Shown: piece after piece, positions 2,816 to 19,468 of the stretch
How the letters are laid out: the number at the start of each line of letters is the position of its first letter
Position numbering within the stretch: position 1 is the stretch's first letter
NCBI GenBank assembly: GCA_964579355.1
Contig: CAZOGR010000001.1
Location: forward strand, 1 to 26,133
Direction of reading: 5' to 3'
DNA length: 26,133 bases
DNA from: an uncultured Dehalococcoidales bacterium
GTDB taxonomy: Bacteria; Chloroflexota; Dehalococcoidia; Dehalococcoidales; UBA2162
Notes under the pieces: model-generated
Told to the model about the DNA's origin: nothing
Seen by the model: the letters and a program-made list of their open reading frames with translations, nothing else
The model's database searches: none
Translations under genes and position numbers: made by a program

Positions 2816-4579
2816 ATGTCCGGAACTTTTAATGAAAAATTCATGGAGAAGATAAGGAATAAACGCGAAGAGTGGGAAAAGGGAACGCTGAAATCTTCTC
2901 TGCAACGATTCGGCGTCAATGAACCGCCGGACCGATTTTACACTCCCTTGGATATACAAGACTGGGAATTCTCGGAAAAAGTCGGTTTCCCGGGAGAATT
3001 CCCCTTCACCGCCGGGATTTATCCCTGCCATGTTCCCGGAGCCGGGCCGGTAACCGGCGGCGGCAATATCGGGGCAACCGGCAAGGGTATGGTCAGAGCC
3101 GGACGTTATTCCGGCTACGGCATGGCTGAAGACACGCGCGACTTTTACGCGAAAGAAATCAAGCGTGGCCGGACCGTCGGCCCGAATCTGGCCTTCGACC
3201 TCCCTACCCAGATTGGTATCGATTCGGATGACCCTCGGGCTGAAGGCGAAGTCGGTAAGACCGGCGTCGCATTCGATTCGCTTCAGGACTTCGAAATTAT
3301 CTACGAGCCGTACGAAGGCGAGAACGGACTCGATAAAATAGCATCCAACTGGACGACCAATGCTCAGGCATTCGTCATCATCGCCGCCTACATCGCCCTT
3401 GCCGAGAAAAAAGGTATTAACCCGAAAATGCTCCGCGGCACCCCCCAGAATGACATTCTGAAAGAATACGTCGCCCGAGGCACCTACATATTCCCACCCA
3501 AGCACTCCCTCCGCCTCTTCCGCGATATCCTGGTATACTGTACCGAGCACACCCCGAGGCTGAACATCTGCAGCATTGCAGCCTACCATATGCGTGAAGG
3601 CGGGGCCACCCGCGAACAGGCCCTGGCATTCCACTTCGCCAACGCCATCACCTATATGCAGATAGGCGTCGACGCCGGTTTGAAAGTGGACGATTTCGTC
3701 GGACGCTTCAGCTTCAACACCCTCAGCGGCGACATGGAGATCATGAAAGAGATTGCCGCCCGCCGGGCTGCCCGCAGGATGTGGGCAAAGATTGTCCGTG
3801 ACCGCTTCGGCAGCCAGAACCCCCGCAGTCAGATATACCGGGAAGCCGGCGGATTTGTTGTCGGTTGCGTATCCTCGACCAAGCAGCGGCCGCTCAATAA
3901 CCTGACGAGAACCGTCATCGGCGGTGTCGCCGGCGCCTTCTGCGGCTATATCCCCTCGGTCGAACCTCCCTACGACGAAGCTCTCGGCCTCGGCTGGAGT
4001 ACGGAAGCCCAACAGCTTTCTGAAGATGCCGCTCGCATCATCCAGTACGAAGCCAGGCTTACCGAAGTGATGGACCCGCTGGCCGGTTCTTACTACATCG
4101 AATCACTCACCGACCAGATAGAACAGAAAGCCTGGGACATCATGAAGGAAATCGAAGACATGGGCGGTTCGCTCAAAGCTATCGAAAACGGCTACATGCA
4201 GCGCGCTGTCGCCCAGAGCGCTTACGAAAAACAGCGCCGGCTCGAAATCGGTGAGGATATTATTGTCGGCGTCAATGCTTTCACTGACAAGAGCGAACTG
4301 GATGTCCGGGTCAAGCAACTGGTACCTTATCCCTACGACCCAACCAAACAGGCCAGCGCGGAAGTGAACCAGATAAAGAAACTGCAGCAACTCCGCAAAG
4401 ACAGAGACAATAACCAGGTGGCAAAAACGCTCAGCCAGTTGAAAGAAACCGCTAAAGACGAAAATGCCAACCTGCTGCCGGCAACCGTAGAAGCTGTTAA
4501 AGCCTACGCTACCATCGGCGAGATTTGCGGCGCCCTGCGCGAAATCTTCGGAGAGTATTCGACCTACGGTACTCTGTAA
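2816..4579 (+). CDS. Adenosylcobalamin-dependent acyl-CoA mutase, substrate-binding (large) subunit; methylmalonyl-CoA mutase family but divergent
   Basis: AFDLPTQIG.DSD, GEVGK.GV, QNDILKEY.ARGTYIFP, YHMRE, YDEAL and DPLAGSYYIE motifs; RBS AGGAG at 2804-2808. Confidence 0.95.
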   Translation: MSGTFNEKFMEKIRNKREEWEKGTLKSSLQRFGVNEPPDRFYTPLDIQDWEFSEKVGFPGEFPFTAGIYPCHVPGAGPVTGGGNIGATGKGMVRAGRYSGYGMAEDTRDFYAKEIKRGRTVGPNLAFDLPTQIGIDSDDPRAEGEVGKTGVAFDSLQDFEIIYEPYEGENGLDKIASNWTTNAQAFVIIAAYIALAEKKGINPKMLRGTPQNDILKEYVARGTYIFPPKHSLRLFRDILVYCTEHTPRLNICSIAAYHMREGGATREQALAFHFANAITYMQIGVDAGLKVDDFVGRFSFNTLSGDMEIMKEIAARRAARRMWAKIVRDRFGSQNPRSQIYREAGGFVVGCVSSTKQRPLNNLTRTVIGGVAGAFCGYIPSVEPPYDEALGLGWSTEAQQLSEDAARIIQYEARLTEVMDPLAGSYYIESLTDQIEQKAWDIMKEIEDMGGSLKAIENGYMQRAVAQSAYEKQRRLEIGEDIIVGVNAFTDKSELDVRVKQLVPYPYDPTKQASAEVNQIKKLQQLRKDRDNNQVAKTLSQLKETAKDENANLLPATVEAVKAYATIGEICGALREIFGEYSTYGTL

Positions 4580-4617
4580 CCATAACAATGAACGTGATAA
4601 AGGGGTAAATTACTGAT

Positions 4618-5013
4618 ATGAGCAGTAAACAGCCAATAAAAGTCCTGTTAGCAAAACCCGGCCTCGACGGTCACGACCGAGGCGCGAAGGTAATAACCAT
4701 GGGCTTGAGAGAAGCTGGCATGGAAGTCATTTACACCGGGCTGAGACAGACGCCCGAAATGATAGCTCAGGCAACACTGGAAGAGCAACCGGATGTGGTT
4801 GCCTTAAGCTGCCTGTCCGGCGCCCACCAGTCTCTCTTTCCCAGAGTTGTTGAAGAGCTGAAAAAGAGAAACATGAAGGACGTTCTGGTCATCGGCGGCG
4901 GGATTATTCCTGATGAGGACGTTCCCGAACTTCAGAGTAAAGGCATTAAAGCCGTTTTCGGCCCCGGCACCTCCATTAAAGAAATTGCCGAATTCATCAG
5001 GGAAAACGTATAA
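4618..5013 (+). CDS. Acyl-CoA mutase cobalamin-binding (small) subunit
   Basis: K.GLDGHDRG (DxHxxG base-off motif), SxLxG (LSCLSG) and GGII motifs. Confidence 0.95.
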
Positions 5014-5073: not shown

Positions 5074-5490
5074 ATGTCCAAGAAAAAGGTCCCTCTGGCA
5101 CAAGGTCTCTTCACATGGCCTTCTGACCAGCCGAAGCTGATTGGCAGCAGATGCAAGAAATGCGGAACTCCGGCGTTCCCGAGTGTTGCTTACTGCACCA
5201 ATCCCGATTGTGAAAAAAATCCGGATAACGTAGAGAAAATCGAGCTCAGCAATCGGGCGAAACTCTACACCTACGCCGTTCAGGCTTATCCGATGCCGGC
5301 CCCCTTCAAAATGGAACCCTTCGAGCCTTTCCCGCTTGGCATGCTCGATTTCCCGGAAGGTCTGAGGATTCTCGGTATGCTGACCACTCCCGATGTAGAG
5401 ATTGGTATGGAAATGGAAATGACCGTGAAAAAACTCTACGAAGATGACGAGAACGAGTACATCACTTGGGCATGGAAGCCGGTAAAGTAA
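5074..5490 (+). CDS. DUF35 / Zn-ribbon OB-fold acyl-CoA-binding protein (thiolase partner)
   Basis: CKKC...CTNPDC four-Cys ribbon followed by an OB-fold ('IGMEMEM'); directly upstream of a thiolase; RBS AGGAGG. Confidence 0.9.
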   Translation: MSKKKVPLAQGLFTWPSDQPKLIGSRCKKCGTPAFPSVAYCTNPDCEKNPDNVEKIELSNRAKLYTYAVQAYPMPAPFKMEPFEPFPLGMLDFPEGLRILGMLTTPDVEIGMEMEMTVKKLYEDDENEYITWAWKPVK

Positions 5491-5512: not shown

Positions 5513-6730
5513 ATGAAAAACAGAGATATTGCAATTGTTGGAATGGGCGTTCATCCTTACGGAAAATGGCCTGACAAGTCCATGGCTGAAATGGGATGCT
5601 ATGCTATCAACCAGGCGCTTGAAGACGCCCACATGAAGTGGCGTGATATCGACGCCATGGCCTGCGGTGCCTACATGTGGATTGCCGACCAAGGCGGAGT
5701 ACCTTCACTGTTACTCGGAACCTCCATCTCAACCATGATGGGCGGCACGGGTATCCCCTGTGTCAACATCGTCAACGCCTGCGCCACCGGCCAGACTATT
5801 CTCAGGGAAGCCTGCCTGGCTGTCGCTTCTGGCGAACATGAAATTGCCGTTGCTGTCGGCACCGATAAATCGGCCGGCGGCTTCTTCAGACCCCAGGGCA
5901 ACGATAAACGGTATGACAACGACTGGATTCGCTACGCGATGGTCGGTGAAACCAATCCCGGCTACTGGGCGATGGAAATGCGCCGTAGAATTCACGATTG
6001 TGGCACCACCGAAGAAGACATGGCCATGGTCAAGGTCATCACCAGTAAAGGCGGCGTCCATAATCCGAACGCCCGCTATCGCAAAGAATACACCCTCCAG
6101 GAAGTCCTCGAATCGCCGATGGTTTGCGACCCGCTTCGCCTATACGAAATCTGCGCCACGAGCGACGCCGCTTCCGCAATAATCGTCGTTCCCTTCGACC
6201 AGGCGGAAAAATATACCGATAAACCGATTCGTATCGAGGGCCTGGCAGTCGGTTCGCCGTCATTCGGCGACCCCTGCATCCCACTGACCTACCTCAGTGC
6301 TTTACCGAAATCCGACGTCGGCACCCTCGGCTGGAGTGAAAGCCGTAACGCACTCGCTGCCGCGTATAAGCAGTCAGGACGCACTCCGAAGGACATCGAT
6401 GTCATCGAACTGCCCGATAACAGCTCATGGCACTACCTTACCTATATGGATATGATTCTCCAGCTCCCCTACGGCGGCTCGGATAAACTCCTCCGCGAAG
6501 GGTATTTCAATATCCCGGACGGTAAAGTTCCGGTCTGCCCCAGCGGCGGATTCGGCGCCTTCGGCGAAGCGACTGTTGCCCAGGGACTCTGGCAATGCAT
6601 CGAAGTTGCTTACCAGCTTCGCGGTGACCTCGGCCCGAGACAGATTACCAACAACCCCAAGGTCGGACTTGCTCAGAGTTACGGCTATGCCGGTAACAAC
6701 GGCGTCTGCATCATGAGCAAAGCCTTTTAA
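5513..6730 (+). CDS. SCP2/lipid-transfer-protein-type thiolase-fold enzyme with non-canonical C-terminal catalytic motifs
   Basis: N-terminal Cys90 in NACATG, HNPNA, 'C..SD.A.A', PSGG..GEA, and QLRG..G.RQ motifs. Confidence 0.9.
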   Translation: MKNRDIAIVGMGVHPYGKWPDKSMAEMGCYAINQALEDAHMKWRDIDAMACGAYMWIADQGGVPSLLLGTSISTMMGGTGIPCVNIVNACATGQTILREACLAVASGEHEIAVAVGTDKSAGGFFRPQGNDKRYDNDWIRYAMVGETNPGYWAMEMRRRIHDCGTTEEDMAMVKVITSKGGVHNPNARYRKEYTLQEVLESPMVCDPLRLYEICATSDAASAIIVVPFDQAEKYTDKPIRIEGLAVGSPSFGDPCIPLTYLSALPKSDVGTLGWSESRNALAAAYKQSGRTPKDIDVIELPDNSSWHYLTYMDMILQLPYGGSDKLLREGYFNIPDGKVPVCPSGGFGAFGEATVAQGLWQCIEVAYQLRGDLGPRQITNNPKVGLAQSYGYAGNNGVCIMSKAF

Positions 6731-6755
6731 CTTTTTTAACTGTAGTCAGAACTGT

Positions 6756-6790
6756 GAGCAGGCTGAAGGAACACCTCCGTCAGCCTGCTC
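6756..6790. repeat. Intergenic inverted repeat (11-bp perfect stem, no U tract)
   Basis: GAGCAGGCTGA (6756-6766) pairs with TCAGCCTGCTC (6780-6790), between the thiolase and the epimerase. Confidence 0.7.
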
Positions 6791-6816
6791 TGTTCATTAA
6801 CAGGAGGTATATCAGC

Positions 6817-7212
6817 ATGCTTAAAGGAATCAGTCACACCGGTATAGCCGTCAAGAATCTCGATGAAACGATTAAAGTCTATGAAGCCCTCGGGGCTGTC
6901 ACCGGCGAGATTCACGACGCTCCGGAATCAGGCATGAGAGCCGCCATGGTACACGCCGGCAGCAGTACCCTCGAGCTTATCGAACCGATTGGTGAAGGCG
7001 GCGTTATCGCTAAATTTATCGAAAGTCGCGGCGAAGGCATTCATCACCTCTGCATGGAGGTCGATGATATCGGAAAAACCCTCGCTGAACTCGAGTCGAA
7101 AGGTATCAGGCTGATAGACAAAGTACCGAGACAGGGTATCGAAGGCCAGGTCGCCTTCATTCATCCCAAATCGATGAACGGGGTACTTATCGAACTGCTG
7201 GAAAAACCATAG
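6817..7212 (+). CDS. mce: Methylmalonyl-CoA epimerase family (VOC) protein
   Basis: HTGIAV, ELIEP, GEGIHH and 'HPKS.NGVLIEL' motifs. Start set at ATG 6817 behind AGGAGG (6802-6807), not at the track's 6754. Confidence 0.9.
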   Translation: MLKGISHTGIAVKNLDETIKVYEALGAVTGEIHDAPESGMRAAMVHAGSSTLELIEPIGEGGVIAKFIESRGEGIHHLCMEVDDIGKTLAELESKGIRLIDKVPRQGIEGQVAFIHPKSMNGVLIELLEKP

Positions 7213-7284: not shown

Positions 7285-8280
7285 CTATTTTTTCGCTTTT
7301 TTAAGTTCGGTGACGAGAGCCGGAATAATTTCTTTGAGATCTCCGACCACCGCGTAATCGGCTGCTTTCATGATATCAGCTGCCGGATTGTTGTTGATAG
7401 CGACGATAACCTTCGAATCCTGAATGCCAATGAGATGGTGAATGACACCCGAAATACCGGCGCCGATGTACAGGTTCGAGTGAATCGTTCGGCCGCTCTG
7501 GCCAATCATCTGCCGTTCCTGGACTGCCCAGCCTTCATCGCAGGCTGGACGGGTTGCGCCGATGCTCGCGCCGAGTACCTCTGCCAGGTCTTCAATCAGC
7601 TTCCAGTTTTCCTTATTTCCAACACCGAAACCGCCGGCGACGATTATCTCGGCTTCTTCGATAGGTTTCGCTTCCAGTTCTTCGGTGACGATGTTGAGGA
7701 CTTTAGTCCTGACTTTGTCTTCAGTGATGGTTACCGGAACTTTTTCTACAACCGCTTGTTTATTCGTCTTCTCGTTTTTCTTAATGAACCCGGGCGGAAC
7801 CGTGGTCATCTGCGGCCGATGGTTCGGACAGGCGATTGATGCCAGGATACTACCGCCAAAGGCAGGTATCTGAGATCTCAGACATCCGTTCTCATCAACA
7901 TCGACGCCGACAGCATGAGCAGAAAGCCCGGTGTCAACCTTAGCGGCGACGGTCGGTGCGAGGTCCATGCCGAGCGTGGTGCCGCCGATGAGGAGGATTT
8001 CCGGCTTTTTGGTGTTTATCAAATCGGCCATTACCGTTGCATAGGCGTCGGTTCGGAAAACTTCGAGAACCGGTGATTCGGCCAGGAGAACCTTGTCGGC
8101 TCCGTAGGCTGCCAGTTCGTCAGCCAGCCCGAAAACATTGTTGCCGATTAACACTGCCGAGAGTTCACAGCCAAGCTTGTCCGCAACCTTACGTCCTGCT
8201 CCGAGCATCTCCAGGCTGACATCGAGCAACTTGCCGTTCCTCTGCTCGGCAAAAGTCCAAACTCCTTTATATGCTTCCAT
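7285..8280 (-). CDS. etfA: Electron transfer flavoprotein alpha subunit (FixB-like)
   Basis: VW.FAEQR N-terminus, PAFGG, 'IIVAGG.G', 'ATRP..D.GW', 'IGQSG' and 'GISG..HH..G' motifs. Confidence 0.95.
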   Translation of the reverse strand: MEAYKGVWTFAEQRNGKLLDVSLEMLGAGRKVADKLGCELSAVLIGNNVFGLADELAAYGADKVLLAESPVLEVFRTDAYATVMADLINTKKPEILLIGGTTLGMDLAPTVAAKVDTGLSAHAVGVDVDENGCLRSQIPAFGGSILASIACPNHRPQMTTVPPGFIKKNEKTNKQAVVEKVPVTITEDKVRTKVLNIVTEELEAKPIEEAEIIVAGGFGVGNKENWKLIEDLAEVLGASIGATRPACDEGWAVQERQMIGQSGRTIHSNLYIGAGISGVIHHLIGIQDSKVIVAINNNPAADIMKAADYAVVGDLKEIIPALVTELKKAKK

Positions 8281-8308: not shown

Positions 8309-9118
8309 CTATTCAGGGAGTACGCCTTCGGCGCGCAGTTTTTCGATAAGCTGCCGTGCAACCTCTACTGAATCACCTTTCAGTACTTCGCCCTTGCGCT
8401 TCACTTCCACGCCAATAGTATCCGGTATATAGGTAGGAGACCCGTCCTTACCGATAAGTTTTTTGTCGACATCGACTTCGTCCGCCCTCCAGATAGTCGT
8501 CTGTTTCTCAGTAGCCCAGAGGGCACCGAAAACAGGCGGAACCCGGACGTCATTGATATTTTTCAAAACCGCCAGGGTAACCGGTGTTTTCACCTCGATT
8601 TCCATGTAACCGGTTTCAATCTTTCTCTGAACTATCAGGGTATTGTCACCTGTCAAATCAATCTTCTGAACATAGGTGACATGAGCGATATCGAGAGCTT
8701 CGGCAACCTGCGGGCCGACCTGCCCGGTACTGCCGTCGACACTCTCATTACCAAGGAGGATGATGTCGTAGGCACCTATTTTCCGAATACCGGCAGCCAG
8801 CGCCCGGGCAGTAGCCCAGGTGTCGGCTCCGCCGAAAGCCCGGTCGCTTAACAGGACGGTTTTATCAACGCCGTAAGCGTAGGCCCAGGCAAGCACTTCG
8901 GTCGTATTGTCCGGCCCCATGCTGATGACCGTAACCGTTCCGCCGGTAGCTTCCTTTATCCTGAGAGCTTCCTCGATAGCATTCAAGTCGAGAGGGTTGA
9001 TGACGACCGGTATGCCCTGCCGTCTGAGTGTTTTCGTTTTGGGATCAAGAGAAAGCCTGTCCCAGTACCGTTCGTCAGGAACAGGTTTGATACAGACTAT
9101 CATATCTAATGGCTTCAT
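8309..9118 (-). CDS. etfB: Electron transfer flavoprotein beta subunit (FixA-like)
   Basis: 'IVCIKPVPD', 'INP.D..AIEEAL', 'DRAFGGADTWAT' and 'G..S.DG.TGQVGP' motifs. Confidence 0.95.
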   Translation of the reverse strand: MKPLDMIVCIKPVPDERYWDRLSLDPKTKTLRRQGIPVVINPLDLNAIEEALRIKEATGGTVTVISMGPDNTTEVLAWAYAYGVDKTVLLSDRAFGGADTWATARALAAGIRKIGAYDIILLGNESVDGSTGQVGPQVAEALDIAHVTYVQKIDLTGDNTLIVQRKIETGYMEIEVKTPVTLAVLKNINDVRVPPVFGALWATEKQTTIWRADEVDVDKKLIGKDGSPTYIPDTIGVEVKRKGEVLKGDSVEVARQLIEKLRAEGVLPE

Positions 9119-9154: not shown

Positions 9155-10381
9155 CTACCAGTCCAGCTTTCCCCACCATCCTGCCGTTTCCATATTGGTA
9201 CTGCTCAGGTCCGGGTTAGCTTCGTTGCGGATGACGGCATTGGCTATCATGATATTCAGAGATTCTTCAGTACCACCTGCGCCGAATCTCAACGGAGTGT
9301 GCTTGTAGTAGTGATGAGCCATGTAGTCCTCGACGACTCCGTAACCGCCGTGAATCTTGACACAGTGCTCGGCACACCTGATAGCTGCCTTTTCTGCAAA
9401 GTTTTTGGCAGTCGCCTGCTCGGCATCAGCGCGGATATTCTTCGTCCGCAGCCAGGCAGCGCGGTAGGTAAGCGCCCGAGAAGCTTCAAGGTCTATTGCC
9501 ATATTGGCAAGGCGCGCTTGAATCATCTGGAGTTCAGAAATCGGCCTGCCGTAAAGTTTTCTTTCTTTGGCATATTTCATCGCTGTCCTGTAACAGCCTA
9601 GCGAAATGCCGGTCAACATGCTGCAGATAGTCTGGCGGCCGATATCACCGACAGCCGCGAAAACAGGGCCAAGGCCGCGTCCGATGCCTGCTTCCTCACC
9701 GACGACAAAGTTATCAGGAACGAATACATTATCGAACACGAATTCGGTAAGGTCTCCCTTTCTGCCCAGGGTGTTTTCAAGTCTACCGATTTTAAACCCG
9801 TCGAATTCTCTGTCAATGATAAAAGCGGTGAGAGACCGCGCGCCGGGAGTCTTCGGGTCGTTGGGGTCGCCGGTTTTCACCAGCGCCATGATGAAATCGG
9901 CATAATGGCCTTCGCTCTGGAAACATTTTCTTCCGTTGATAACCCATCCGCCGTCAACCTTTTTAGCATTGGTCTGAATAGCCAGAACGTCGGAACCACC
10001 GGTAGGCTCGGTAACAGCCGGGGTTGCCAGTATGTCGCCCTTGATGATTCCAGGCATATATTTTTTATAGACCGCTCCGCCACAAGCCTTGGCGAAATAG
10101 TAAGCAAATTCGCCATAAATAGCGAAGGCCAGGTCAGGCCAGGCCGCACACAGTTCTTCGATGGTAATACAACTGGCTACGTACCCGATTCCGGTGCCGC
10201 CCTCTTCTTTGGGAACGATGTGAAGATGAAGGCCAGCTCTCGTCTGGCGCCTGGCTTCCTCATCCCACATCTCCTGATCGTCGATAATCAGTTCTTTCCG
10301 ACGCGGAATAATGTATTTTTCGCAGTATTCACGAGCTATTTTTCGTGACATTTCTTCTGCCGGCGATAACTCAAAAGGCAT
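9155..10381 (-). CDS. Acyl-CoA dehydrogenase-family flavoprotein lacking the canonical catalytic glutamate
   Basis: TEP.GGSD, NGRKCF, FD.VFVP, 'KER..YGRPI' and 'HGGYG' motifs; RBS AAGGAGG; immediately upstream of etfB-etfA. Confidence 0.93.
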   Translation of the reverse strand: MPFELSPAEEMSRKIAREYCEKYIIPRRKELIIDDQEMWDEEARRQTRAGLHLHIVPKEEGGTGIGYVASCITIEELCAAWPDLAFAIYGEFAYYFAKACGGAVYKKYMPGIIKGDILATPAVTEPTGGSDVLAIQTNAKKVDGGWVINGRKCFQSEGHYADFIMALVKTGDPNDPKTPGARSLTAFIIDREFDGFKIGRLENTLGRKGDLTEFVFDNVFVPDNFVVGEEAGIGRGLGPVFAAVGDIGRQTICSMLTGISLGCYRTAMKYAKERKLYGRPISELQMIQARLANMAIDLEASRALTYRAAWLRTKNIRADAEQATAKNFAEKAAIRCAEHCVKIHGGYGVVEDYMAHHYYKHTPLRFGAGGTEESLNIMIANAVIRNEANPDLSSTNMETAGWWGKLDW

Positions 10382-10691: not shown

Positions 10692-10783
10692 GAGTAGTGA
10701 CACTCCCGGATTTCAATCATCATGATAACAAGAAATCCGTTTTTGCTGTGTAATTTTTATTTTTGAGAAAGAAGGAGGATACT

Positions 10784-11710
10784 ATGATTATTGATGCCCA
10801 CATGCACCTTAGCGGAAGCGGCTGGGTAAGAGGTAAGTACCTGCGTTTCGTGTGGCAGATGTACGTTACCGAGTATAACCGGGTGCACAAAACAAACAAA
10901 ACCATCGATGACTTCAGAAATATGTTGACAGCTATGAAGCCGTCAGTGGTTGATCCTGAAGGCGATGGTGTCATCGAGTTGATGGACAAAGCCGGGGTTG
11001 ACAAGGCTGTTATCTTCCCTGTCGACTGGGAATCCGTAACCGGGGCTCCGAACGTTCCTGTCATGGAACAAAACAAAGCCCATGCCGACGCGGCAAAGAA
11101 GCACACGGGCCGCTTCGTACCGATATGTGCTCTTAACCCCACCCGTGGCGACGCCATGGACCGCGCTAAACAGGCTGTTGAAGAATGGGGGATGAAGGGG
11201 TTCTACTTCATGCCGGCTTCGGGATTCCGCCCGGATGACCCGGTTTGTTTCCCCATCTACGAAAAAGCTGTCGAATGGAAAGTGCCGGTTATTATCCACT
11301 CCGGCAAGGAGATAGCTCATTGGGACTATTGCCACCCGTTCAGAATCGCCAATGTCGGCCTAATGTATCCTGAACTGAAGGTGGTTATCGGGCACGCAGG
11401 GACAAGAATATACCGGAGAGAAGCCATAGAAGCCTGTATCGTACCGAATGTTTATATGGACTTCTCAGAGTACCAGGGTTTCTGGCACCTTCAGCCCGAA
11501 AAATTCTACAACTGGTTGCGGGATGCTATCGATGCTTGCGGTCCTCAGAAGGTAATGTTCGGCAGCGGTTTCCCCAATCCGAACGTGTTGACCCCCGAAG
11601 CCGAATGGGTCAAGGCAATTACGGAACCGAAGACGAATGTCAAGTTCACTGCCGAGGAGATAGATTTCGTCATGGGCAAGACTGCCGAGTCAGTCTTCGA
11701 TTTTTCTTAA
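10784..11710 (+). CDS. Amidohydrolase_2 family metalloprotein (decarboxylase/hydratase-like subgroup)
   Basis: DAHMH (HxH), IIHSG, IGHAG and 'KVMFGS.FP' motifs. Start set at ATG 10784 behind AAGGAGG. Confidence 0.88.
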   Translation: MIIDAHMHLSGSGWVRGKYLRFVWQMYVTEYNRVHKTNKTIDDFRNMLTAMKPSVVDPEGDGVIELMDKAGVDKAVIFPVDWESVTGAPNVPVMEQNKAHADAAKKHTGRFVPICALNPTRGDAMDRAKQAVEEWGMKGFYFMPASGFRPDDPVCFPIYEKAVEWKVPVIIHSGKEIAHWDYCHPFRIANVGLMYPELKVVIGHAGTRIYRREAIEACIVPNVYMDFSEYQGFWHLQPEKFYNWLRDAIDACGPQKVMFGSGFPNPNVLTPEAEWVKAITEPKTNVKFTAEEIDFVMGKTAESVFDFS

Positions 11711-11745
11711 ACCTTAATTAGTAAAACAAATAATCGGAGGAAAAT

Positions 11746-12402
11746 ATGGCTGATATTCTGGATATCATCTCCAGCCGGCAGAGTATCCGTAAATATACGG
11801 ATGAACCCGTCCCGGACGAGATGGTTGATAAAATCCTTGAAGCCGCGCGGTGGGCACCGAGCGGAGAAAACGAACAACCCTGGCACTTCGTTGTTGTCAA
11901 AGACCCCGAAACCCGCAAGAAAATCGGTGAATACTGCAAGGTAGGCACCGGCCAGAGAGGTACCGCCGAACACTGTCTTCATGAAGACCACCGTTTCGAT
12001 GTTTATACCGACCCGGTCGAAAAAGCCCGTCTGCAGGAATTCTACTACAGTGGTTCCGTATCGTTCTTCCCGGCCAATGCCCCCGTCGTCATCATCGCCG
12101 CGGGCAAAGTCACTGGAATGATGGATACCCCGTACGACCTTTCGGCAGCAATTCAGAATGCCATTCTCGAAGCTCACTCTCTCGGGCTGGGAGCCTGCTG
12201 GGTCCACGGACCCGCGGTCTACCCCCGAATCGTCAAGAAACTGAAAGAGCTTCTCGGTATTCCCACCGGTATGGCTGACTATAAAGTCCTCGCCATCATC
12301 TCGGTCGGCTGGCCGGCAGGAAAACGAAGTCACCCCCAGGGAAGGAAAGAAAGGTCGACCTTCGTGCACTTCGAAAAATTCGGGAACATGAAGAGGGGCT
12401 AA
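11746..12402 (+). CDS. Nitroreductase-family FMN flavoprotein
   Basis: R.SIRKY, 'APSGEN.QPW.F', 'D...AIQN..L.A.SLGLG.CW' motifs. Confidence 0.92.
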   Translation: MADILDIISSRQSIRKYTDEPVPDEMVDKILEAARWAPSGENEQPWHFVVVKDPETRKKIGEYCKVGTGQRGTAEHCLHEDHRFDVYTDPVEKARLQEFYYSGSVSFFPANAPVVIIAAGKVTGMMDTPYDLSAAIQNAILEAHSLGLGACWVHGPAVYPRIVKKLKELLGIPTGMADYKVLAIISVGWPAGKRSHPQGRKERSTFVHFEKFGNMKRG

Positions 12403-12888
12403 ATGGATCAGATAGCATATACAAACGACCTGCTCACCAGGTTCGAAGAAATTTTTTACCATGAACTGTCGCAGATTAACGCTCGCTGCAAGGTCGAGTT
12501 AATCGGCTCCGATTTCCTCAATGATAAAAACATCAAAGGGAATACGGTCGAGGAACTGGTCCAGAACTGTATCGATGAAATCAAGGCTGACGGCTTCGTC
12601 AAGGACATGACCGGTAAAGTTACCGGACGCGGCATTCTCCTGAAACTCAACATGAAAGGCTGCATCCACCTGCCGAAAGAAGCGAAACTCCAGGCACAGG
12701 GAATCGAGCCCTACCTCTGCCCTCTGGCAAACATGATTTCCGAGCAGATAATCAGCAAACTGAACTACATGACCACCTATTCAGCCGGCATGACTGTCGA
12801 TACACAGAAAGGCGAATGCGTCATATACTGCGCCATTTACAAGGATATGGACTCTATCGGCAAGGTATCGGACTGGACAAAGGAATAG
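12403..12888 (+). CDS. Hypothetical protein, possibly a V4R-like Cys-coordinated ligand-binding fold
   Basis: ATG abuts the nitroreductase TAA, with RBS AGAGGGG. 'GCIH...CPLAN...EC' Cys spacing resembles V4R-type domains; the fold call is inference. Confidence 0.6.
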   Translation: MDQIAYTNDLLTRFEEIFYHELSQINARCKVELIGSDFLNDKNIKGNTVEELVQNCIDEIKADGFVKDMTGKVTGRGILLKLNMKGCIHLPKEAKLQAQGIEPYLCPLANMISEQIISKLNYMTTYSAGMTVDTQKGECVIYCAIYKDMDSIGKVSDWTKE

Positions 12889-12912
12889 AATCTCTCGATT
12901 CCGCCTCCGGTA

Positions 12913-12941
12913 TTGACAGATACGGAATGAGGGTATATAGT
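12913..12941 (+). promoter_or_regulatory. sigma70 promoter of the Trp T-box/trpB2 unit (TTGACA-17-TATAGT)
   Basis: Near-consensus hexamers about 30 nt upstream of the T-box stem I. Confidence 0.8.
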
Positions 12942-12973
12942 AAGTCATTACCTTGTTTAACAAAAAGAAATAG

Positions 12974-13280
12974 AAGGCTGTGAACAGGACTAGTAGCCTG
13001 CGAAGCGGGACTCAGAGAGTCGGGAAAGCGATATGGTAATTCCGTATCCGGGTGGAAACCGATGTCAGCGCCGAAGGTGAATGGACCCGGGAGCCGCAAA
13101 TCGAAAATTCCGGATTAACCGGATAGAGTAGGCTTTGCCGCAGGGGGAGCGTTATCAAACCCCGGGGTATCGAGCTTTCAGGCTCCGTACCTGACCGAGA
13201 TGGTTGCTGCCTGATGTATGCAACCAAGAAGGGTGGCACCGCGGATAAACCCCCGCCCCTTTAAGGGACGGGGGTTTTTG
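12974..13280 (+). ncRNA. T-box riboswitch, tryptophan-specific, transcription-attenuating
   Basis: 5' AAGGCTGTGAACAGGACTAGTA; AG-box CAGAGAG; GGTGGAA loop; specifier GAA-TGG at 13082-13084; T-box AAGAAGGGTGGCACCGCGG at 13226-13244; terminator hairpin plus T run at 13247-13279. Confidence 0.93.
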
Positions 13281-13326
13281 TATTTATCAAACAACACGGA
13301 GAAAAGAAAACGATAAGGAGAACTAT

Positions 13327-14691
13327 ATGAACACCAGAATGTTTTTTCTTCAACAGAAAGACATGCCGAAGCAGTGGTATAACATACAGGCGGACTTACC
13401 CGTCCCACTGCCTCCCTACTATCACCCGGCAACGAAAAAACCGATTGGGCCGGCTGACCTCGCGCCCCTCTTTGCCATGGAGTTGATAAAACAGGAAGTC
13501 AGCCAGGAGCGCTACATCGATATCCCCGAAGAAGTTCAGGATATCTACAGAACCTGGAGACCAACCGCTCTTCACCGCGCTTACAGCCTGGAGAAAGCCC
13601 TCGATACTCCCGCCAAGATTTTCTACAAGTACGAAGGCACCAGCCAGGGCGGCAGCCATAAACCGAACACGGCCATTGCTCAAGCCTACTACAATAAAAA
13701 AGAAGGCATCAATCGACTCACCACCGAAACCGGGGCCGGACAGTGGGGCAGTTCACTTTCTTTTGCCTGTAAACTCTTCAATATCGAACTGAAAGTGTAC
13801 ATGGTAAAAGTCAGCTACAACCAGAAACCCTACCGCCGCCTGATGATGGAAACCTGGGGTGCCACCTGTGTTCCCAGCCCCAGTCCCGATACAAAAATCG
13901 GCCGCGATATGCTGGCTAAAGACCCGGACTGTCCCGGCAGCCTCGGCCTGGCTATCAGTGAAGCCGTCGAAGACGCTGTTTCGAGAGACGATACCCATTA
14001 CTCGCTCGGCAGCGTCCTCAACCATGTCCTGATGCACCAGACCATCATCGGACAGGAAGCGATGCTCCAGATGGAGATGGCCGGGTATTACCCCGATATT
14101 GTCATCGGCTGCGTCGGCGGCGGCTCCAACTTCGCGGGCATGTTCCTGCCCTTCGTTAAAGACAAAATCAGCGGCAAAAAACCCGGACTGCGTATCATCA
14201 ACGTCGAACCGGAGAGCTGCCCTACCCTCACCAAAGGTCTTTATGCCTATGATTACGGCGATGAAGCCGGCATGGCTCCCATTGCCAAGATGTTCACCCT
14301 CGGCCATTCCTTCATGCCGCCTCCGGTTCACGCCGGCGGCCTCCGTTACCATGGCATGGCACCGATTATCTGCCATCTCCACAAGCTTGGATTCGTCGAA
14401 GCGGTTGCCGTACCCCAGATAGCCACTTTCGAAGCAGGGGTTCAGTTCGCCCGTACCGAAGGTATTATCAGCGCTCCGGAAACCAACCACGCTATCAGAG
14501 CTACCATTAACGAAGCCCTGAAATGCAAAGAGACCGGTGAGTCTAAGGTTATCCTGATGTGTCACAGTGGACACGGACATTTCGACCTGACTTCCTACGA
14601 ACAGTATCTCGGCGGAAAACTGGTCGATTATGCGTACCCCGAAGAGAAAGTCAGGGAAGCTCTGGCAACCCTGCCCCAGATAGAAGAATAA
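13327..14691 (+). CDS. trpB2: Tryptophan synthase beta chain, stand-alone TrpB2 type
   Basis: GSHKPNTA (PLP Lys), [17 protein letters not shown] and HAGGLRYHG motifs; long N-terminus '[12 protein letters not shown]' typical of TrpB2; no trpA adjacent. Confidence 0.95.
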
Positions 14692-16111: not shown

Positions 16112-19100
16112 TCACGCCAGCTTTTTGACCCCCATCGAAACCGCATGCCCGCTGATTTTGAATTCTTCCCGGTAGTCAGCATTCTCAGGAACGCCCACCA
16201 TCAGTTTGTCGGTCAGCGTCTCCTGCCTGATGTAATCTCCGGTGACACCACCGGCCATAATACCATTGACATACTCGTCGCCCTCATAGTGGACGATTAT
16301 GTGGTCAGCAATATCGAAATCCGCCGAACGCCGCATGTTCTGAATCCGGTGGACTATTTCCCGGGCCATTCCTTCGGCTTCGAGTTCCGGCGTCAGGACA
16401 GTATAGATAGCAGAATTCGTATTGCCTTCGGCTGCAACCATGTACCCTTCCTTGCCATTCAGTATTTCAACCTCAGCGAACAATTGCACCTCCACGGTTT
16501 TCACGTTCAGCTCATCCAGCACCATCTGCATAATTTCTTCATTCGCCAGTGCCCGTTTCTCACGGTCGGTGGCAACACCGATATAGTTGACTGCCAGCGG
16601 CTGTCTCACCTTGATACCCGCTTTGCTTCTTACCGCTCTGCCAAGGCTCGATACCTTCATCGCCAGCTTGTTGGCTTCGGAAAGCTGCTCATCAATCATG
16701 CTTTCATCAGCAGCAGGGAAGTCAGCCAAGTGAACGCTTTCGGGAGCCGCCGGGTTCACTGAAACCACCAGGTTCCGGTACAGCTCTTCGGAAAGAAACG
16801 GAGTGAATGGTGCCATCAGCTTCGCCAGCGTCACCAGGCATTCGTACAGTGTGTTGTATGCCGAAAGTTTATCGGTATCGTTCTCACTCTTCCAGAACCG
16901 TCTCCGGCTCCGCCGTACGTACCAGTTAGACAGCAGGTCAATGAATGTCTCAATTTTTCGTCCGGAATCGGTCGGATTGTAGTTTGCCAGACCGCCGTCA
17001 ACATCGATAATCAACTGACTCAGCTCTGAAAGTATCCACTTGTCCAGTTCCGCTTCAGGTTTAAAGGACATCCCATCGGCAGGTTTGAATTCATCGATGT
17101 TCGCGTACATAACAAAGAATGAATAGACATTCCAGAGAGTCGAAAGTACCCGCCGTGAAACTTCGGTGACCTGTTTCGTATCGAACTGACGGGGGATGCC
17201 GGACGGCGACCCGGTGTAAAGGTACCAGCGCAAGGCGTCGGCTCCGTCCTTATTGATGACATCTTTCGGCCAGACGATATTGCCCCGGCTCTTGCTCATT
17301 TTTTTACCCTTGGCATCGAGTACCAGCTCCAGGCAGATACAGTTCTCGAAAGCGACACGGTCGAATAGCATCGTCGATATGGCATGAAGGCTGTAAAACC
17401 AGCCTCGGGTCTGGTCGACGCCTTCGCTGATGAACTCCGCAGGCGAAACGCTTTTCTCGAACAGTTCTTTATTTTTCATTGGATAATGGAACTGAGCGAA
17501 CGGCATCGAACCGGATTCGAACCAGCAGTCCATTACTTCCGGGGTACGTTTCATTCCTCCGCCGCATTTGCCACATGAGAAGGTAATATCATCCGCGTAA
17601 GGCCGGTGCAGATCGATCGTTTCGGCAAAGCCGCTGAAACCGGGTTTCGCCCTTAACTCATCGATACTGCCGACACACTCCATCTCACCGCATTTCTCGC
17701 AGCGCCAGATTGGCAGTGGCGCCCCCCAGTACCGTTCCCGAGCAAACGCCCAGTCGACATTATTCTCTAGCCAGTTGCCGAACCGACCGGATTTAATATG
17801 CTCCGGATACCAGTTAATCCCCCGGTTCAGATCCATCATCCGCTCTTTGACGGCGGTTGTCTTGATGTACCAGGTCTGCTTGGCATAGTAGAGCAGCGGG
17901 GCGTCGCAGCGCCAGCAGAAAGGATAGGTGTGCTTCACCATCTCCCGGCGATAGAGTAGTCCGCGTTCCTTTAATTCTTCCATTATCAGCGGGTCGGCTG
18001 CCTTGACGAACTTGCCGGCAAAGGAATAGGACCCAATCAGATTTCCCTGTAGGTCTACCTGCTGGACGAAATCCAGTTTTTTCGTTTTCCCGGCTTCGTA
18101 GTCGACTTCGCCGAAAGCGGGTGCAACATGGACGATACCGGTACCGTCATCCATCGTCACAAAATCACCGCCGATAACGGTATACATCAGATTAGTCTCC
18201 GGTTCCTGTTTGACCAGCGAACCGTCGTCCTGGAATCTCAGACGATCGACCGAGTATTCATGCGGATTGTAGAGCGGCTGATAACGAATACCCACCAACT
18301 CTTTACCGGGGATGTTTTTCACCGATGTGTATCCTTCCGGATTCAGAATGACCGCCAGCCGGGCTGCCATGACCAGGTAATCGTTCTCACCCTGTAAGAC
18401 CACATACTCGGAATCCGCCGATACTGCCAGGGCAGTGTTGCCGGGCAACGTCCAGGGAGTCGTCGTCCATGCCAGCAGGTATACCGGTTTATCAGACGGC
18501 AGTTTTTCCGAGATATCATCGGCTACCTTAAACTTTATGTAAACAGAAGGGTCGACCGTATCGTCTTTATACCCCTGGGCGACCTCGTGTGAGCTTAAGG
18601 ACGTTCCGCAGCGCGGGCAGTGAGGTGTCACCCGGTATCCCTGGTAGACAAGTCCTCTGTCCCACATCTGCTTCAGCGCCCACCAGACAGATTCTATGTA
18701 GCTGTTGTTCATCGTCACGTAGGCATTGTCGAGGTCGACCCAGTAAGCAATGCGCTCGGTCATGCTATTCCACTCTTTAAGATAGGTAAAGACGCTGTCC
18801 CGGCACCGCTTGTTGAATACTTCAATGCCGATTTTTTCAATCTGGTCCTTGCTGGTTATTCCGAGCTGTTTTTCCACTTCCAGTTCGACAGGCAGGCCAT
18901 GTGTATCCCAGCCCGCAATACGTGGCACGTAGTACCCCTTCATCACCTTGTAACGAATGATGATATCTTTGTAGGCCCGCGCGAGCACGTGGTGAATACC
19001 GGGATTGCCATTCGCGAAGGGAGGCCCCTCGTAAAAAACGAACCGGTCGTTCTTTTCCCGCGAGGTAACGCTTTTCCCGAAAACATCAATCTGTTTCCAG

Positions 19101-19162
19101 AGCTCCAGGATATCTTCTTCCATCTTTGGAAAATTAACATGGCTCCCGACAGGTTTAAACAT
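16112..19162 (-). CDS. ileS: Isoleucine--tRNA ligase, type 2 (archaeal/eukaryote-like)
   Basis: FYEGPPFANG.P.IHH (HIGH variant), GWDTHGLPVE, WTTTPWTLP and KMSKS motifs; C-terminal 'EG.AREIV.RIQ..R' lacks the type-1 Zn finger. Start is ATG 19162 (GGAG 6 nt upstream) or GTG 19165. Confidence 0.97.
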   Translation of the reverse strand: MFKPVGSHVNFPKMEEDILELWKQIDVFGKSVTSREKNDRFVFYEGPPFANGNPGIHHVLARAYKDIIIRYKVMKGYYVPRIAGWDTHGLPVELEVEKQLGITSKDQIEKIGIEVFNKRCRDSVFTYLKEWNSMTERIAYWVDLDNAYVTMNNSYIESVWWALKQMWDRGLVYQGYRVTPHCPRCGTSLSSHEVAQGYKDDTVDPSVYIKFKVADDISEKLPSDKPVYLLAWTTTPWTLPGNTALAVSADSEYVVLQGENDYLVMAARLAVILNPEGYTSVKNIPGKELVGIRYQPLYNPHEYSVDRLRFQDDGSLVKQEPETNLMYTVIGGDFVTMDDGTGIVHVAPAFGEVDYEAGKTKKLDFVQQVDLQGNLIGSYSFAGKFVKAADPLIMEELKERGLLYRREMVKHTYPFCWRCDAPLLYYAKQTWYIKTTAVKERMMDLNRGINWYPEHIKSGRFGNWLENNVDWAFARERYWGAPLPIWRCEKCGEMECVGSIDELRAKPGFSGFAETIDLHRPYADDITFSCGKCGGGMKRTPEVMDCWFESGSMPFAQFHYPMKNKELFEKSVSPAEFISEGVDQTRGWFYSLHAISTMLFDRVAFENCICLELVLDAKGKKMSKSRGNIVWPKDVINKDGADALRWYLYTGSPSGIPRQFDTKQVTEVSRRVLSTLWNVYSFFVMYANIDEFKPADGMSFKPEAELDKWILSELSQLIIDVDGGLANYNPTDSGRKIETFIDLLSNWYVRRSRRRFWKSENDTDKLSAYNTLYECLVTLAKLMAPFTPFLSEELYRNLVVSVNPAAPESVHLADFPAADESMIDEQLSEANKLAMKVSSLGRAVRSKAGIKVRQPLAVNYIGVATDREKRALANEEIMQMVLDELNVKTVEVQLFAEVEILNGKEGYMVAAEGNTNSAIYTVLTPELEAEGMAREIVHRIQNMRRSADFDIADHIIVHYEGDEYVNGIMAGGVTGDYIRQETLTDKLMVGVPENADYREEFKISGHAVSMGVKKLA

Positions 19163-19196
19163 CACTCACTCCACTTTTTTTCAGTTTCTTACCAAT

Positions 19197-19468
19197 AAAA
19201 AAACCTCGTCACAGGGACGAGGCTGCTATAGCTCCGCGGTACCACCCTTGTTTCCCGATTGCATCGGGACACTCATCAAAGCACATTACAATGCTTCCGC
19301 TGTCGGTAACGGTCAGCGACTCCGTTCAAGCCTACTAACCCCGGGACTGCCGGGATATTCGGTTGACGACTCGGGAGGGATTTTCGGGAAGACGGCCACG
19401 TCTGCTTTCACCGAACCAGACTCGCTGCGTACCCGGATACTTCCTTACTCTTCTCCGTCACTGTCTTT
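19197..19468 (-). ncRNA. T-box riboswitch, isoleucine-specific
   Basis: Minus strand: AAAGACAGTGACGGAGAAGAGTA; CAGCGAG; GGTGAAAG; specifier GAAA-ATC at 19381-19379; T-box AACAAGGGTGGTACCGCGG at 19252-19234; terminator CCTCGTC/GACGAGG plus U7. Confidence 0.93.

What the first reader, a model, noticed from the sequence alone, without database searches (positions are those of the whole stretch)
9155..10381. Acyl-CoA dehydrogenase with no catalytic glutamate at either canonical site
Seen: the SCAD/MCAD-type site (IYEGT) reads FGAGGT (Gly369, codon GGT at 9277-9275, two changes from Glu). The IVD/LCAD-type helix-G site (LD.ER) reads GDIGR (Gly248). FAD-binding motifs are intact and the gene is linked to etfBA. 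Established: ACAD-fold enzymes without this base perform other chemistry, such as decarboxylating benzylmalonyl-CoA dehydrogenase or sulfinopropionyl-CoA desulfinase. Inference: given the nearby mutase and epimerase, an ETF-linked decarboxylating 2-carboxyacyl-CoA dehydrogenase; the Arg in PLRFG might bind the carboxylate (speculative).
Basis: partly seen in the sequence, partly recalled or inferred. Interest (0 to 1): 0.8.

Follow-up and report, generated by a model that had tools for sequence, protein, structure and literature searches.

The report
Acyl-CoA dehydrogenase lacking its catalytic base
This Dehalococcoidales gene belongs to a small conserved family of acyl-CoA dehydrogenase-like flavoproteins that lack the catalytic glutamate at both known positions, and their gene neighbours suggest, without proving, that they oxidise and decarboxylate alkylmalonyl-CoA.

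Summary
ORF 9155-10381 (-) has a confident acyl-CoA dehydrogenase (ACAD) fold. Gly369 (GGT, 9277-9275) aligns with the catalytic Glu of the YEG site. Gly248 sits at the helix-G (IVD/LCAD-type) site.

This is a family trait, not an accident. All 60 relatives (44-96% identical) that cover these sites have Gly at both. The family is small and mostly Dehalococcoidales.

The ACAD is followed by etfB-etfA wherever the contig extends far enough. This ETF most resembles the electron-bifurcating type.

In 21 of 30 loci with enough flank there is a methylmalonyl-CoA epimerase, and in 15 a B12 acyl-CoA mutase. The gene orders differ: convergent, or same strand directly upstream. The mutase is a divergent subfamily that keeps the carboxylate-binding Tyr and Arg. 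Dicarboxylate-type family III CoA-transferases, enoyl-CoA hydratases and thiolases recur.

This parallels the IaaL-IaaGH-IaaF system, the one characterised decarboxylating 2-carboxyacyl-CoA dehydrogenase.

Two details fail. The Arg in PLRFG is not conserved. IaaF does not use ETF, whereas this family is always ETF-linked. The nearest outgroup also lacks the Glu, but it pairs with 4-hydroxybutyryl-CoA dehydratase rather than a mutase.

The parts
9155..10381 (-). ACAD-fold flavoprotein, 408 aa, with no acidic residue at either canonical catalytic-base site. It has the family-specific EFAYYF motif and a C-terminal extension (ANPDLSS..ME.AGW).
9275..9277 (-). Codon GGT for Gly369, in place of the YEG-site catalytic Glu (motif reads A368-G369-G370).
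   Evidence: invariant Gly in the family
9638..9640 (-). Codon GGC for Gly248, the helix-G (IVD/LCAD/CaiA-type) base position, next to the invariant Arg249.
8309..9118 (-). EtfB, ETF small subunit, bifurcating-type signature (SDRAFGGADTWAT, DGSTGQVGPQ).
   Evidence: follows the ACAD in every locus with room
7285..8280 (-). EtfA, ETF large subunit. Best solved matches are the bifurcating CarE and C. difficile EtfA.
6754..7212 (+). Methylmalonyl-CoA epimerase (glyoxalase fold). The real start is probably the ATG at about 6817 (MLKGISH...).
   Evidence: TIGR03081 134 bits, cut-off 115; present in 21 of 30 informative loci
5513..6730 (+). SCP-x/BbsB-type thiolase.
   Evidence: syntenic in the Dehalococcoidales loci
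5074..5490 (+). DUF35 (zinc ribbon plus OB fold, BbsA/ChsH2-like) partner of the thiolase.
4618..5013 (+). B12-binding small subunit of the acyl-CoA mutase (DxHxxG reads LDGHDRG).
2816..4579 (+). Large subunit of a divergent acyl-CoA mutase. It keeps the equivalents of MCM Tyr89, Gln197, Arg207, Tyr243 and His244. It lacks the H-x-Q-T-S-G and S-L-H-T-N motifs shared by MCM and HCM.
10763..11710 (+). Amidohydrolase_2 family gene, divergent from the ACAD. It is a conserved neighbour in Dehalococcoidales, and its role is unknown.
   Evidence: an Amidohydro_2 gene also lies next to a group-2 Glu-less ACAD locus

Best explanation
The gene encodes an FAD-containing ACAD-fold enzyme that works with its own bifurcating-type EtfBA. 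I propose it oxidises a short 2-alkylmalonyl-CoA (2-carboxyacyl-CoA) to a 2-enoyl-CoA plus CO2.

Proposed mechanism, all inferred. The 2-carboxylate sits in the cavity left by Tyr-to-Ala368 and Glu-to-Gly369, close to the invariant Arg249. Loss of CO2 replaces abstraction of the C2 proton. The C3 hydride goes to FAD N5, and the electrons pass to ETF.

Proposed pathway, inferred from neighbours. A family III CoA-transferase activates a dicarboxylate. The B12 mutase converts a (substituted) succinyl-CoA to the (2R)-alkylmalonyl-CoA. The epimerase supplies the enantiomer the dehydrogenase uses. The enoyl-CoA then enters beta-oxidation through hydratase, 3-hydroxyacyl-CoA dehydrogenase and the thiolase/DUF35 pair.

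Shown: the absence of the base, the fold, the family conservation and the gene linkage. Inferred: the substrate, the decarboxylation and the direction of the reaction.
For: Gly occupies both base positions in 60 of 60 family members.

The residue before the base site is Ala or Gly instead of Tyr. Published work links such substitutions to alpha-substituted substrates.

The ACAD-etfB-etfA order is universal where the contig allows.

A methylmalonyl-CoA epimerase is present in 21 of 30 informative loci. In 8 loci of the 44-51% identity subgroup it lies directly upstream on the same strand, and it passes TIGR03081.

A B12 mutase is present in 15 of 30 loci, in three different arrangements. One is MutL-ACAD-EtfBA-CoA-transferase on one strand in L052.

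The mutase family conserves the carboxylate-binding Tyr and Arg.

The neighbouring CoA-transferases best match the succinate-glutarate and succinyl-CoA:mesaconate types.

There is a precedent. IaaF has GGG in place of YEG, is enantiospecific, can be restarted by methylmalonyl-CoA epimerase, and works with IaaL (CoA-transferase) and IaaGH (mutase).
Against: There are no biochemical data. IaaF does not use ETF and is inactive on methyl- and ethylmalonyl-CoA.

The closest outgroup also lacks the Glu, yet it is linked to AbfD-type 4-hydroxybutyryl-CoA dehydratase and not to a mutase or epimerase. The Glu was therefore lost before any tie to alkylmalonyl-CoA.

Some family loci (L001, L012, L046) have neither mutase nor epimerase within view. 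L001 looks like an ordinary butyryl-CoA beta-oxidation set.

L012 carries a biotin-type carboxyltransferase that could already handle methylmalonyl-CoA.

Much of the mutase synteny lies within one order, Dehalococcoidales, so the loci are not independent.

I could not inspect 3D coordinates for an unconventional base.
Confidence: 0.45

Rival explanations
1. It is the dehydrogenase of a Bbs-like or Mcd-like beta-oxidation of a 2-substituted succinyl-CoA or another dicarboxylyl-CoA (methylsuccinyl-, alkylsuccinyl-, glutaryl-CoA). The C2 proton would be removed by something other than the usual Glu, such as the substrate's own distal carboxylate or a water molecule. The mutase and epimerase would only recycle the succinyl-CoA released by the thiolase/DUF35 pair.
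For: The recurring neighbours reproduce the bbs gene set: family III CoA-transferases (two in tandem in L046), ACAD with ETF, enoyl-CoA hydratase, HBD/SDR, and thiolase with DUF35. The DUF35 protein's only NCBIfam hit is BbsA. L001 and L014 look like glutarate- or crotonyl-CoA-type sets.
Against: BbsG, Mcd, ThnO and glutaryl-CoA dehydrogenase all keep the Glu or Asp (VEG, GEG, YEG). Substrate-assisted proton abstraction has no precedent in this fold. In loci without a mutase, the epimerase directly upstream of the ACAD is hard to explain.
Confidence: 0.17
2. It is an ordinary short-chain enoyl-CoA reductase / acyl-CoA dehydrogenase (Bcd- or AcrC-like) of an electron-bifurcating EtfAB complex, and its catalytic base lies at an unrecognised third position. 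The mutase and epimerase would simply be the neighbouring propionyl-CoA pathway.
For: The ETF is of the bifurcating type. Its best solved matches are CarDE, C. difficile Bcd-Etf and A. fermentans Etf. The best NCBIfam hits of all three proteins are the AcrABC models. L001 has thiolase, HBD and ECH. The Glu-less outgroup sits where a Bcd would be expected, next to AbfD.
Against: All NCBIfam scores are far below cut-off (214 against 640). Glu-bearing Bcds score much higher on the AcrC model (455-522 bits), so that hit is generic. No acidic residue is conserved across family 1 and group 2 other than canonical ones (E75, E76, E125, E202). Glu91 is Gln or Gly in some members. Asp246 is the canonical helix-G Asp, which does not rescue MCAD Glu376 mutants (established knowledge). 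By helix geometry it faces away from the IVD-type position.
Confidence: 0.15
3. It performs non-dehydrogenase chemistry on the ACAD scaffold. Examples are an elimination or hydrolysis like 3-sulfinopropionyl-CoA desulfinase, an isomerase, or a non-redox alkylmalonyl-CoA decarboxylase.
For: It has the same AGG motif as AcdDPN7, which also lacks a base at both positions and shows no dehydrogenase activity (AcdDPN7 details from my own knowledge of Schurmann et al. 2015). Among the 127 nearest 50%-identity cluster representatives, 14 lack an acid at both sites, so base-less ACAD-fold proteins are a recurring theme.
Against: The invariable operon link to EtfBA argues for electron transfer. The score on the desulfinase model is 146 bits against a cut-off of 600. 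No Arg is evident at the Arg84-equivalent region (residues 84-97 hold no Arg or Lys).
Confidence: 0.1

Closest known systems
IaaF, benzylmalonyl-CoA dehydrogenase (decarboxylating) of Aromatoleum aromaticum (PMC8360864)
   Same: Both are ACAD-fold FAD enzymes in which small residues replace Tyr-Glu of the YEG motif (GGG in IaaF, AGG here). Both are encoded alongside a family III CoA-transferase and a two-subunit B12 acyl-CoA mutase. IaaF's stereospecificity makes a methylmalonyl-CoA epimerase useful.
   Different: IaaF uses O2 in vitro and not ETF, while this family is always fused in operon with EtfBA. IaaF prefers benzyl and C4 or longer alkyl groups and rejects methyl- and ethylmalonyl-CoA. 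Here the helix-E aromatics (F92, Y94, Y95, F96) hint at a short substrate. Common ancestry was not tested because no IaaF sequence was at hand.
AcdDPN7, 3-sulfinopropionyl-CoA desulfinase (PDB 5AF7/5AHS)
   Same: It has the same ACAD fold, no acidic residue at either base position, and the same AGG motif.
   Different: It is non-redox, is not ETF-linked, and depends on Arg84. Similarity is weak (146 bits against a 600 cut-off on NF042439) and no equivalent Arg is evident.
Bcd-EtfAB, CarC-CarDE and AcrABC (enoyl-CoA reductase complexes with bifurcating-type ETF)
   Same: The gene order is ACAD-etfB-etfA. The ETF subunits most resemble CarD/CarE and C. difficile EtfBA. The ACAD folds best onto SCAD and Bcd.
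   Different: Those dehydrogenases keep the YEGT Glu. This family scores lower on the AcrC model than canonical Bcds do.
E. coli CaiA (crotonobetainyl-CoA reductase) with FixAB
   Same: It has SGG at the YEG site, is ETF-linked, and has a family III CoA-transferase and an ECH-family partner.
   Different: CaiA carries Glu at the helix-G site (FDHER), so it is IVD-type and not base-less. It is only 24% identical.
Crotonyl-CoA carboxylase/reductase (Ccr) and the ethylmalonyl-CoA pathway
   Same: The chemistry would be the same in reverse (enoyl-CoA + CO2 + 2e- to alkylmalonyl-CoA). The same downstream partners appear: epimerase, B12 mutase and an ETF-linked ACAD.
   Different: Ccr is an NADPH-dependent MDR-fold enzyme with no sequence relation. 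This comparison is an analogy only.

Membership tests
Acyl-CoA dehydrogenase superfamily (fold) | N-terminal, middle and C-terminal ACAD domains with the overall fold | tested here: met
   PF02771, PF02770 and PF00441 all exceed their cut-offs. AF2 pLDDT is 90, and Foldseek TM is 0.84-0.92 to SCAD, MCAD and Bcd.
Acyl-CoA dehydrogenase superfamily (fold) | FAD-binding motifs (S/T-E-P-x-x-G-S; K-x-W/F-I-T/S; Arg and Gln of the neighbouring subunit) | tested here: met
   TEPTGGSD, KCFQS, R274, Q285 and HGGYG are present. The N5-contacting Thr is Ser here and variable in the family.
Canonical alpha,beta-dehydrogenating ACADs (MCAD/SCAD/Bcd type or IVD/LCAD type) | Catalytic Glu/Asp at the YEG loop or at the helix-G position | tested here: not met
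   Gly369 and Gly248 here, and Gly at both sites in 60 of 60 family members.
IaaF-type decarboxylating 2-carboxyacyl-CoA dehydrogenase | YEG replaced by small residues, with no base | tested here: met
   AGG here against GGG in IaaF.
IaaF-type decarboxylating 2-carboxyacyl-CoA dehydrogenase | Genomic association with a B12 acyl-CoA mutase and a family III CoA-transferase | tested here: met
   A mutase is present in 15 of 30 loci and a family III CoA-transferase in 7 of 30, in several gene orders.
IaaF-type decarboxylating 2-carboxyacyl-CoA dehydrogenase | Membership of the BMal clade in a phylogeny | not testable with these tools
IaaF-type decarboxylating 2-carboxyacyl-CoA dehydrogenase | Oxidative decarboxylation of a 2-carboxyacyl-CoA, with no activity on the plain acyl-CoA | not testable with these tools
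   This needs enzymology.
3-Sulfinopropionyl-CoA desulfinase (NF042439) | Equivalog score and the essential Arg84 | tested here: not met
   146 bits against a cut-off of 600. There is no Arg or Lys in residues 84-97. The exact Arg84 column was not aligned.
Acryloyl-CoA reductase AcrC (NF042972) | Equivalog score | tested here: not met
   214 bits against a cut-off of 640. Canonical Bcds score 455-522.
Bifurcating-type (two-FAD) ETF, for the partner EtfBA | Closest to structurally characterised bifurcating ETFs, with the beta-FAD motifs in EtfB | tested here: met
   CarD/CarE score 206/320 bits and 5OL2 scores 185/264 bits. Human and Paracoccus ETFs score about 56 bits for EtfB and 107-123 bits for EtfA. 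The motifs SDRAFGGADTWAT and DGSTGQVGPQ are present. Bifurcation itself was not tested.
Methylmalonyl-CoA mutase proper (NF006944), for the neighbouring mutase | Equivalog score and the conserved H-x-Q-T-S-G and S-L-H-T-N motifs | tested here: not met
   433 bits against a cut-off of 876. The motifs read REAGGF..G and IPSVEPP across 117 relatives, while Tyr89, Arg207, Tyr243 and His244 are kept.

The most novel reading that the evidence does not exclude
The enzyme runs physiologically in reverse, as an ETF-driven (NADH/ferredoxin-coupled) reductive carboxylase built on the ACAD scaffold. FADH- would deliver a hydride to C3 of an enoyl-CoA. Because the proton-donating Glu is replaced by a cavity, the enolate would capture CO2 to give an alkylmalonyl-CoA. 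The epimerase and the divergent mutase would then carry this on to a succinyl-CoA derivative. This would be an anaerobic, flavin-based counterpart of crotonyl-CoA carboxylase/reductase and the ethylmalonyl-CoA route.
Probability: 0.07. Interest if true: 0.9.

Novelty: new variant of a known kind. Interest (0 to 1): 0.6.

Why it matters
Only one decarboxylating 2-carboxyacyl-CoA dehydrogenase (IaaF) has been characterised, and its physiological electron acceptor is unknown. A second lineage hard-wired to a bifurcating-type ETF would show how such enzymes are coupled to anaerobic energy metabolism.

It would also give a function to a gene block conserved in uncultured Dehalococcoidales: the Glu-less ACAD, EtfBA, an epimerase and an unusual B12 mutase.

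Finally, it would offer a candidate for the poorly defined step that removes the carboxyl group of alkylmalonyl-CoA after the mutase reaction in anaerobic degradation of succinate adducts. Even if the substrate guess is wrong, the family is a clean test of what an ETF-linked ACAD does without its catalytic base.

Tried and rejected
Pseudogene or sequencing error: rejected. The ORF is intact and Gly is conserved at both sites in 60 of 60 relatives.

AcrC (acryloyl-CoA reductase) identity: rejected. All scores are sub-threshold, and Glu-bearing Bcds match the AcrC model better.

CaiA analogy as a 'base-less ETF-linked reductase': rejected. CaiA has Glu at the helix-G site.

Heteromeric ACAD with a catalytically dead subunit (FadE26/27-like): rejected. 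Loci carry a single ACAD gene, and in L019 both paralogues lack the Glu.

Desulfinase identity: not supported.

Arg365 as the carboxylate ligand: weakened. It is Met or Leu in P0048-P0058 and P0061.

Glu91 (EFAYYF) as an alternative base: weakened. It is Gln in P0015 and P0033 and Gly in P0043.

Attempts that led nowhere:
- I looked for an AcrC sequence in a paper supplement.
- I searched the literature for Glu-less ACADs next to AbfD and for mutase specificity signatures.
- The Rfam scan found no riboswitch near the cluster.
Full report
**1. The observation**

The reverse strand of 9155-10381 encodes a 408-aa protein. Its N terminus, MPFELSPAEE, matches that of all relatives, so the start is right. 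FGAGGT occupies residues 366-371 and GDIGR residues 245-249. Gly369 is GGT at 9277-9275 and Gly248 is GGC at 9640-9638, exactly as reported.

All three ACAD Pfam domains are present. HMMER alignments to solved ACADs put Gly369 opposite the Glu of I-G/Y-E-G-T in 1WS9, 5LNX, 4L1F and 3PFD. A MAFFT alignment maps Gly369 to Glu363 of A. fermentans Bcd. It maps Gly248 to the position where E. coli CaiA has Glu240, in FDHER, the IVD-type arrangement.

An AlphaFold2 model is confident (pLDDT 90, pTM 0.90). It superposes on SCAD, MCAD, Bcd and glutaryl-CoA dehydrogenase with TM 0.84-0.92. Helix G runs unbroken through residues 237-273. The only acidic residue near the helix-G site is therefore Asp246, three residues before Arg249. 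This is the canonical Asp present in all ACADs (MCAD Asp253). By helix geometry it faces away from the IVD-type position. From established mutagenesis of MCAD Glu376, this Asp does not substitute for the base.

I could not read model coordinates. 'No other base near C2' is therefore an inference from alignment, not a measurement.

**2. A family trait**

The protein search found a sharply bounded family, P0001-P0062, with at least 46% identity and at least 327 bits. The next hits drop to 39% identity and 249 bits.

Every member that covers the two sites has Gly at both, 60 of 60. The local motif is (A/G)-G-G-T-(D/E/S)-E. Other family marks are the EFAYYF motif in helix E, the TGDPNDPxTxG insertion and a C-terminal tail, ANPDLSS..ME.AGW.

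Arg365 of PLRFG is Arg in the closer members but Met or Leu in P0048-P0058 and P0061. Glu91 is Gln or Gly in three members.

In a library clustered at 50% identity the whole family collapses to one representative (663 bits), and the next hit scores 454 bits. Genome hits are mostly Dehalococcoidales MAGs. A few come from Thermodesulfobacteriota, Syntrophobacterales/Syntrophaceae and Bacteroidales. L009 is 96% identical to the window.

Among the 127 nearest single-domain representatives:
- 100 have an acid at the YEG site only.
- 12 have an acid at the helix-G site only.
- 1 has an acid at both.
- 14 have an acid at neither.

Base-less ACAD-fold proteins are therefore a minority but are not unique.

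**3. Surroundings**

I compared 53 family loci: the window, 2 found by exact-protein look-up, 20 from genomes and 30 from metagenomes.

etfB-etfA follows the ACAD on the same strand wherever the contig continues. Both ETF subunits match the structurally characterised bifurcating ETFs best. CarD/CarE score 206 and 320 bits, and C. difficile EtfBA 185 and 264 bits. Human and Paracoccus ETFs score about 56 bits for EtfB and 107-123 bits for EtfA. EtfB keeps SDRAFGGADTWAT and DGSTGQVGPQ.

Of 30 loci with at least 5 kb downstream or 3 kb upstream, the neighbours are:
- a methylmalonyl-CoA epimerase in 21
- a B12 mutase large subunit in 15
- a thiolase in 13
- a family III CoA-transferase in 7
- an enoyl-CoA hydratase in 7

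The arrangements differ between lineages:
- Dehalococcoidales: a convergent Epim-Thl-DUF35-MutS-MutL block.
- L011, L017, L020 and L045 (ACAD 60-66% identical): the same block without the thiolase pair.
- L052 (54%): MutL-ACAD-EtfB-EtfA-CoA-transferase on one strand.
- L014 (54%): ACAD-EtfBA-CoA-transferase-HBD-ECH-HBD-HMGCS-thiolase-MCM on one strand.
- The 44-51% subgroup: the epimerase directly upstream on the same strand in eight loci. L057 also has mutases on both sides.

That upstream gene passes the TIGR03081 epimerase cut-off, 129 bits against 115. The CoA-transferases best match succinate-glutarate, succinyl-CoA:mesaconate and formyl-CoA transferases. L012 has a FixC-like ETF oxidoreductase and a carboxyltransferase.

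**4. The mutase is unusual**

Its best solved relatives are HcmA (343 bits) and human MCM (314 bits). It reaches only 433 bits on the MCM equivalog model, whose cut-off is 876.

Across 117 relatives of at least 57% identity, mostly Chloroflexota, the equivalents of MCM Tyr89, Gln197, Arg207, Tyr243 and His244 are conserved. The H-x-Q-T-S-G and S-L-H-T-N motifs shared by MCM and HCM are replaced by REAGGF..G and IPSVEPPYDE.

Retention of Tyr89 and Arg207 points to a carboxylate-bearing substrate, meaning a succinyl-CoA/alkylmalonyl-CoA pair. This follows from established knowledge of MCM against ICM and HCM. Which substrate it is remains open.

**5. What is known**

The IaaF paper (PMC8360864) shows that IaaF has GGG in place of YEG. 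It couples oxidation of benzylmalonyl-CoA strictly to decarboxylation. It is enantiospecific, and methylmalonyl-CoA epimerase restarts the reaction. It needs the 2-carboxy group and works downstream of IaaL (a family III CoA-transferase) and IaaGH (a B12 mutase).

IaaF does not use ETF, and it does not accept methyl- or ethylmalonyl-CoA.

The same paper lists other branches without the YEG Glu: IVD (GAG), the desulfinase (AGG), CaiA (SGG) and Pim (YGG). I found that CaiA has the helix-G Glu, so it is not base-less.

The window protein's best NCBIfam hit, AcrC at 214 bits, is generic. Canonical Bcds score 455-522 bits on that model.

**6. Interpretation**

The module of dicarboxylate CoA-transferase, B12 mutase with a carboxylate pocket, epimerase and base-less ACAD with Ala/Gly replacing Tyr parallels IaaL-IaaGH-IaaF. 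The epimerase directly upstream of the ACAD, in loci that lack a nearby mutase, ties the ACAD itself to alkylmalonyl-CoA.

I therefore rank ETF-coupled oxidative decarboxylation of a short alkylmalonyl-CoA first, at about 0.45. The aromatic-rich helix E (F92, Y94, Y95, F96) suggests a short side chain, but this is inference. The invariant Arg249 is the likelier neighbour of the 2-carboxylate, not Arg365.

The rivals are:
- A Bbs/Mcd-like dehydrogenase of substituted succinyl-CoA with an unconventional base (0.17). The neighbour set also reproduces bbsA-H.
- A Bcd/AcrC-like reductase with a hidden base (0.15).
- Non-dehydrogenase chemistry (0.10).

A caution applies to all readings. The nearest outgroup (33-39% identical; SAG, AGG or SGG at the site) also lacks both acids and is also ACAD-EtfB-EtfA. 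However, in three of three contexts it sits next to an AbfD-type 4-hydroxybutyryl-CoA dehydratase (323 bits to 1U8V), once fused to EtfA. The loss of the Glu therefore predates the mutase/epimerase association, and its meaning for the whole clade is unexplained.

**7. Verdict**

If the function holds, this is a new variant of a known kind, a second and ETF-linked lineage of IaaF-like chemistry. Interest is 0.6.

Noticed in passing
window 2816-5013 (+): The two-subunit B12 acyl-CoA mutase belongs to a large, conserved and mostly Chloroflexota subfamily (117 relatives at 57% identity or more). It keeps Tyr89, Arg207, Tyr243 and His244 but replaces the H-x-Q-T-S-G and S-L-H-T-N motifs common to MCM and HCM. 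Its substrate is unknown, and all database names are generic.
   Followed up: partly
L027 10099-12576; L028 6102-7556; L029 6413-7876: The nearest outgroup of Glu-less ACADs (ACAD-EtfB-EtfA) sits next to AbfD-type 4-hydroxybutyryl-CoA dehydratase genes in three of three contexts. In a Vicinamibacterales MAG the EtfA is fused to the AbfD-like domain (825 aa). I know of no described system of this kind.
   Followed up: partly
L026 5245-6387 (E. coli K-12 caiA): CaiA is listed in the literature among ACADs lacking the YEG Glu (SGG). It has a Glu at the helix-G IVD-type position (FDHER), so it probably uses that base.
   Followed up: partly
P0241, P0242, P0244 (and about ten other 740-800-aa hits): These are tandem double-ACAD proteins. 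In P0241 and P0242 one ACAD domain reads IGAGT (no Glu) and the other IGEGT, resembling a fused version of heteromeric ACADs. In P0244 both domains lack the Glu.
   Followed up: no
window 9155-9230 (residues 385-408 of the ACAD): A C-terminal extension, ANPDLSS..ME.AGW(WGKLDW), is conserved in the family and absent from other ACADs. The model has low confidence there (pLDDT 40-70). It could be a contact with ETF or with another subunit.
   Followed up: no
window 10763-14691 (+): A block of Amidohydrolase_2, nitroreductase, a 161-aa protein with no Pfam match, and a TrpB-like PLP enzyme is conserved divergently upstream of the ACAD in Dehalococcoidales. An Amidohydro_2 gene also flanks the group-2 locus L027.
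   Followed up: partly
window 19210-19470 (-): A T-box leader (RF00230, 99 bits) lies upstream of the isoleucyl-tRNA synthetase gene (16112-19165, -). This is ordinary.
   Followed up: yes
L012 3394-4683 and 9298-10842; L049 801-2087: In a Thermodesulfobacteriota relative, the ACAD-EtfBA trio is flanked by a FixC-like ETF:quinone oxidoreductase and a carboxyltransferase (PF01039). This hints at a different electron outlet and at a biotin-type route for methylmalonyl-CoA in that lineage.
   Followed up: no
L002 5260-7158; L019 18317-20245 and 20327-21197: In the distant subgroup a 632-642-aa radical SAM protein and an MmgE/PrpD-family protein recur downstream of ACAD-EtfBA-ECH.
   Followed up: no
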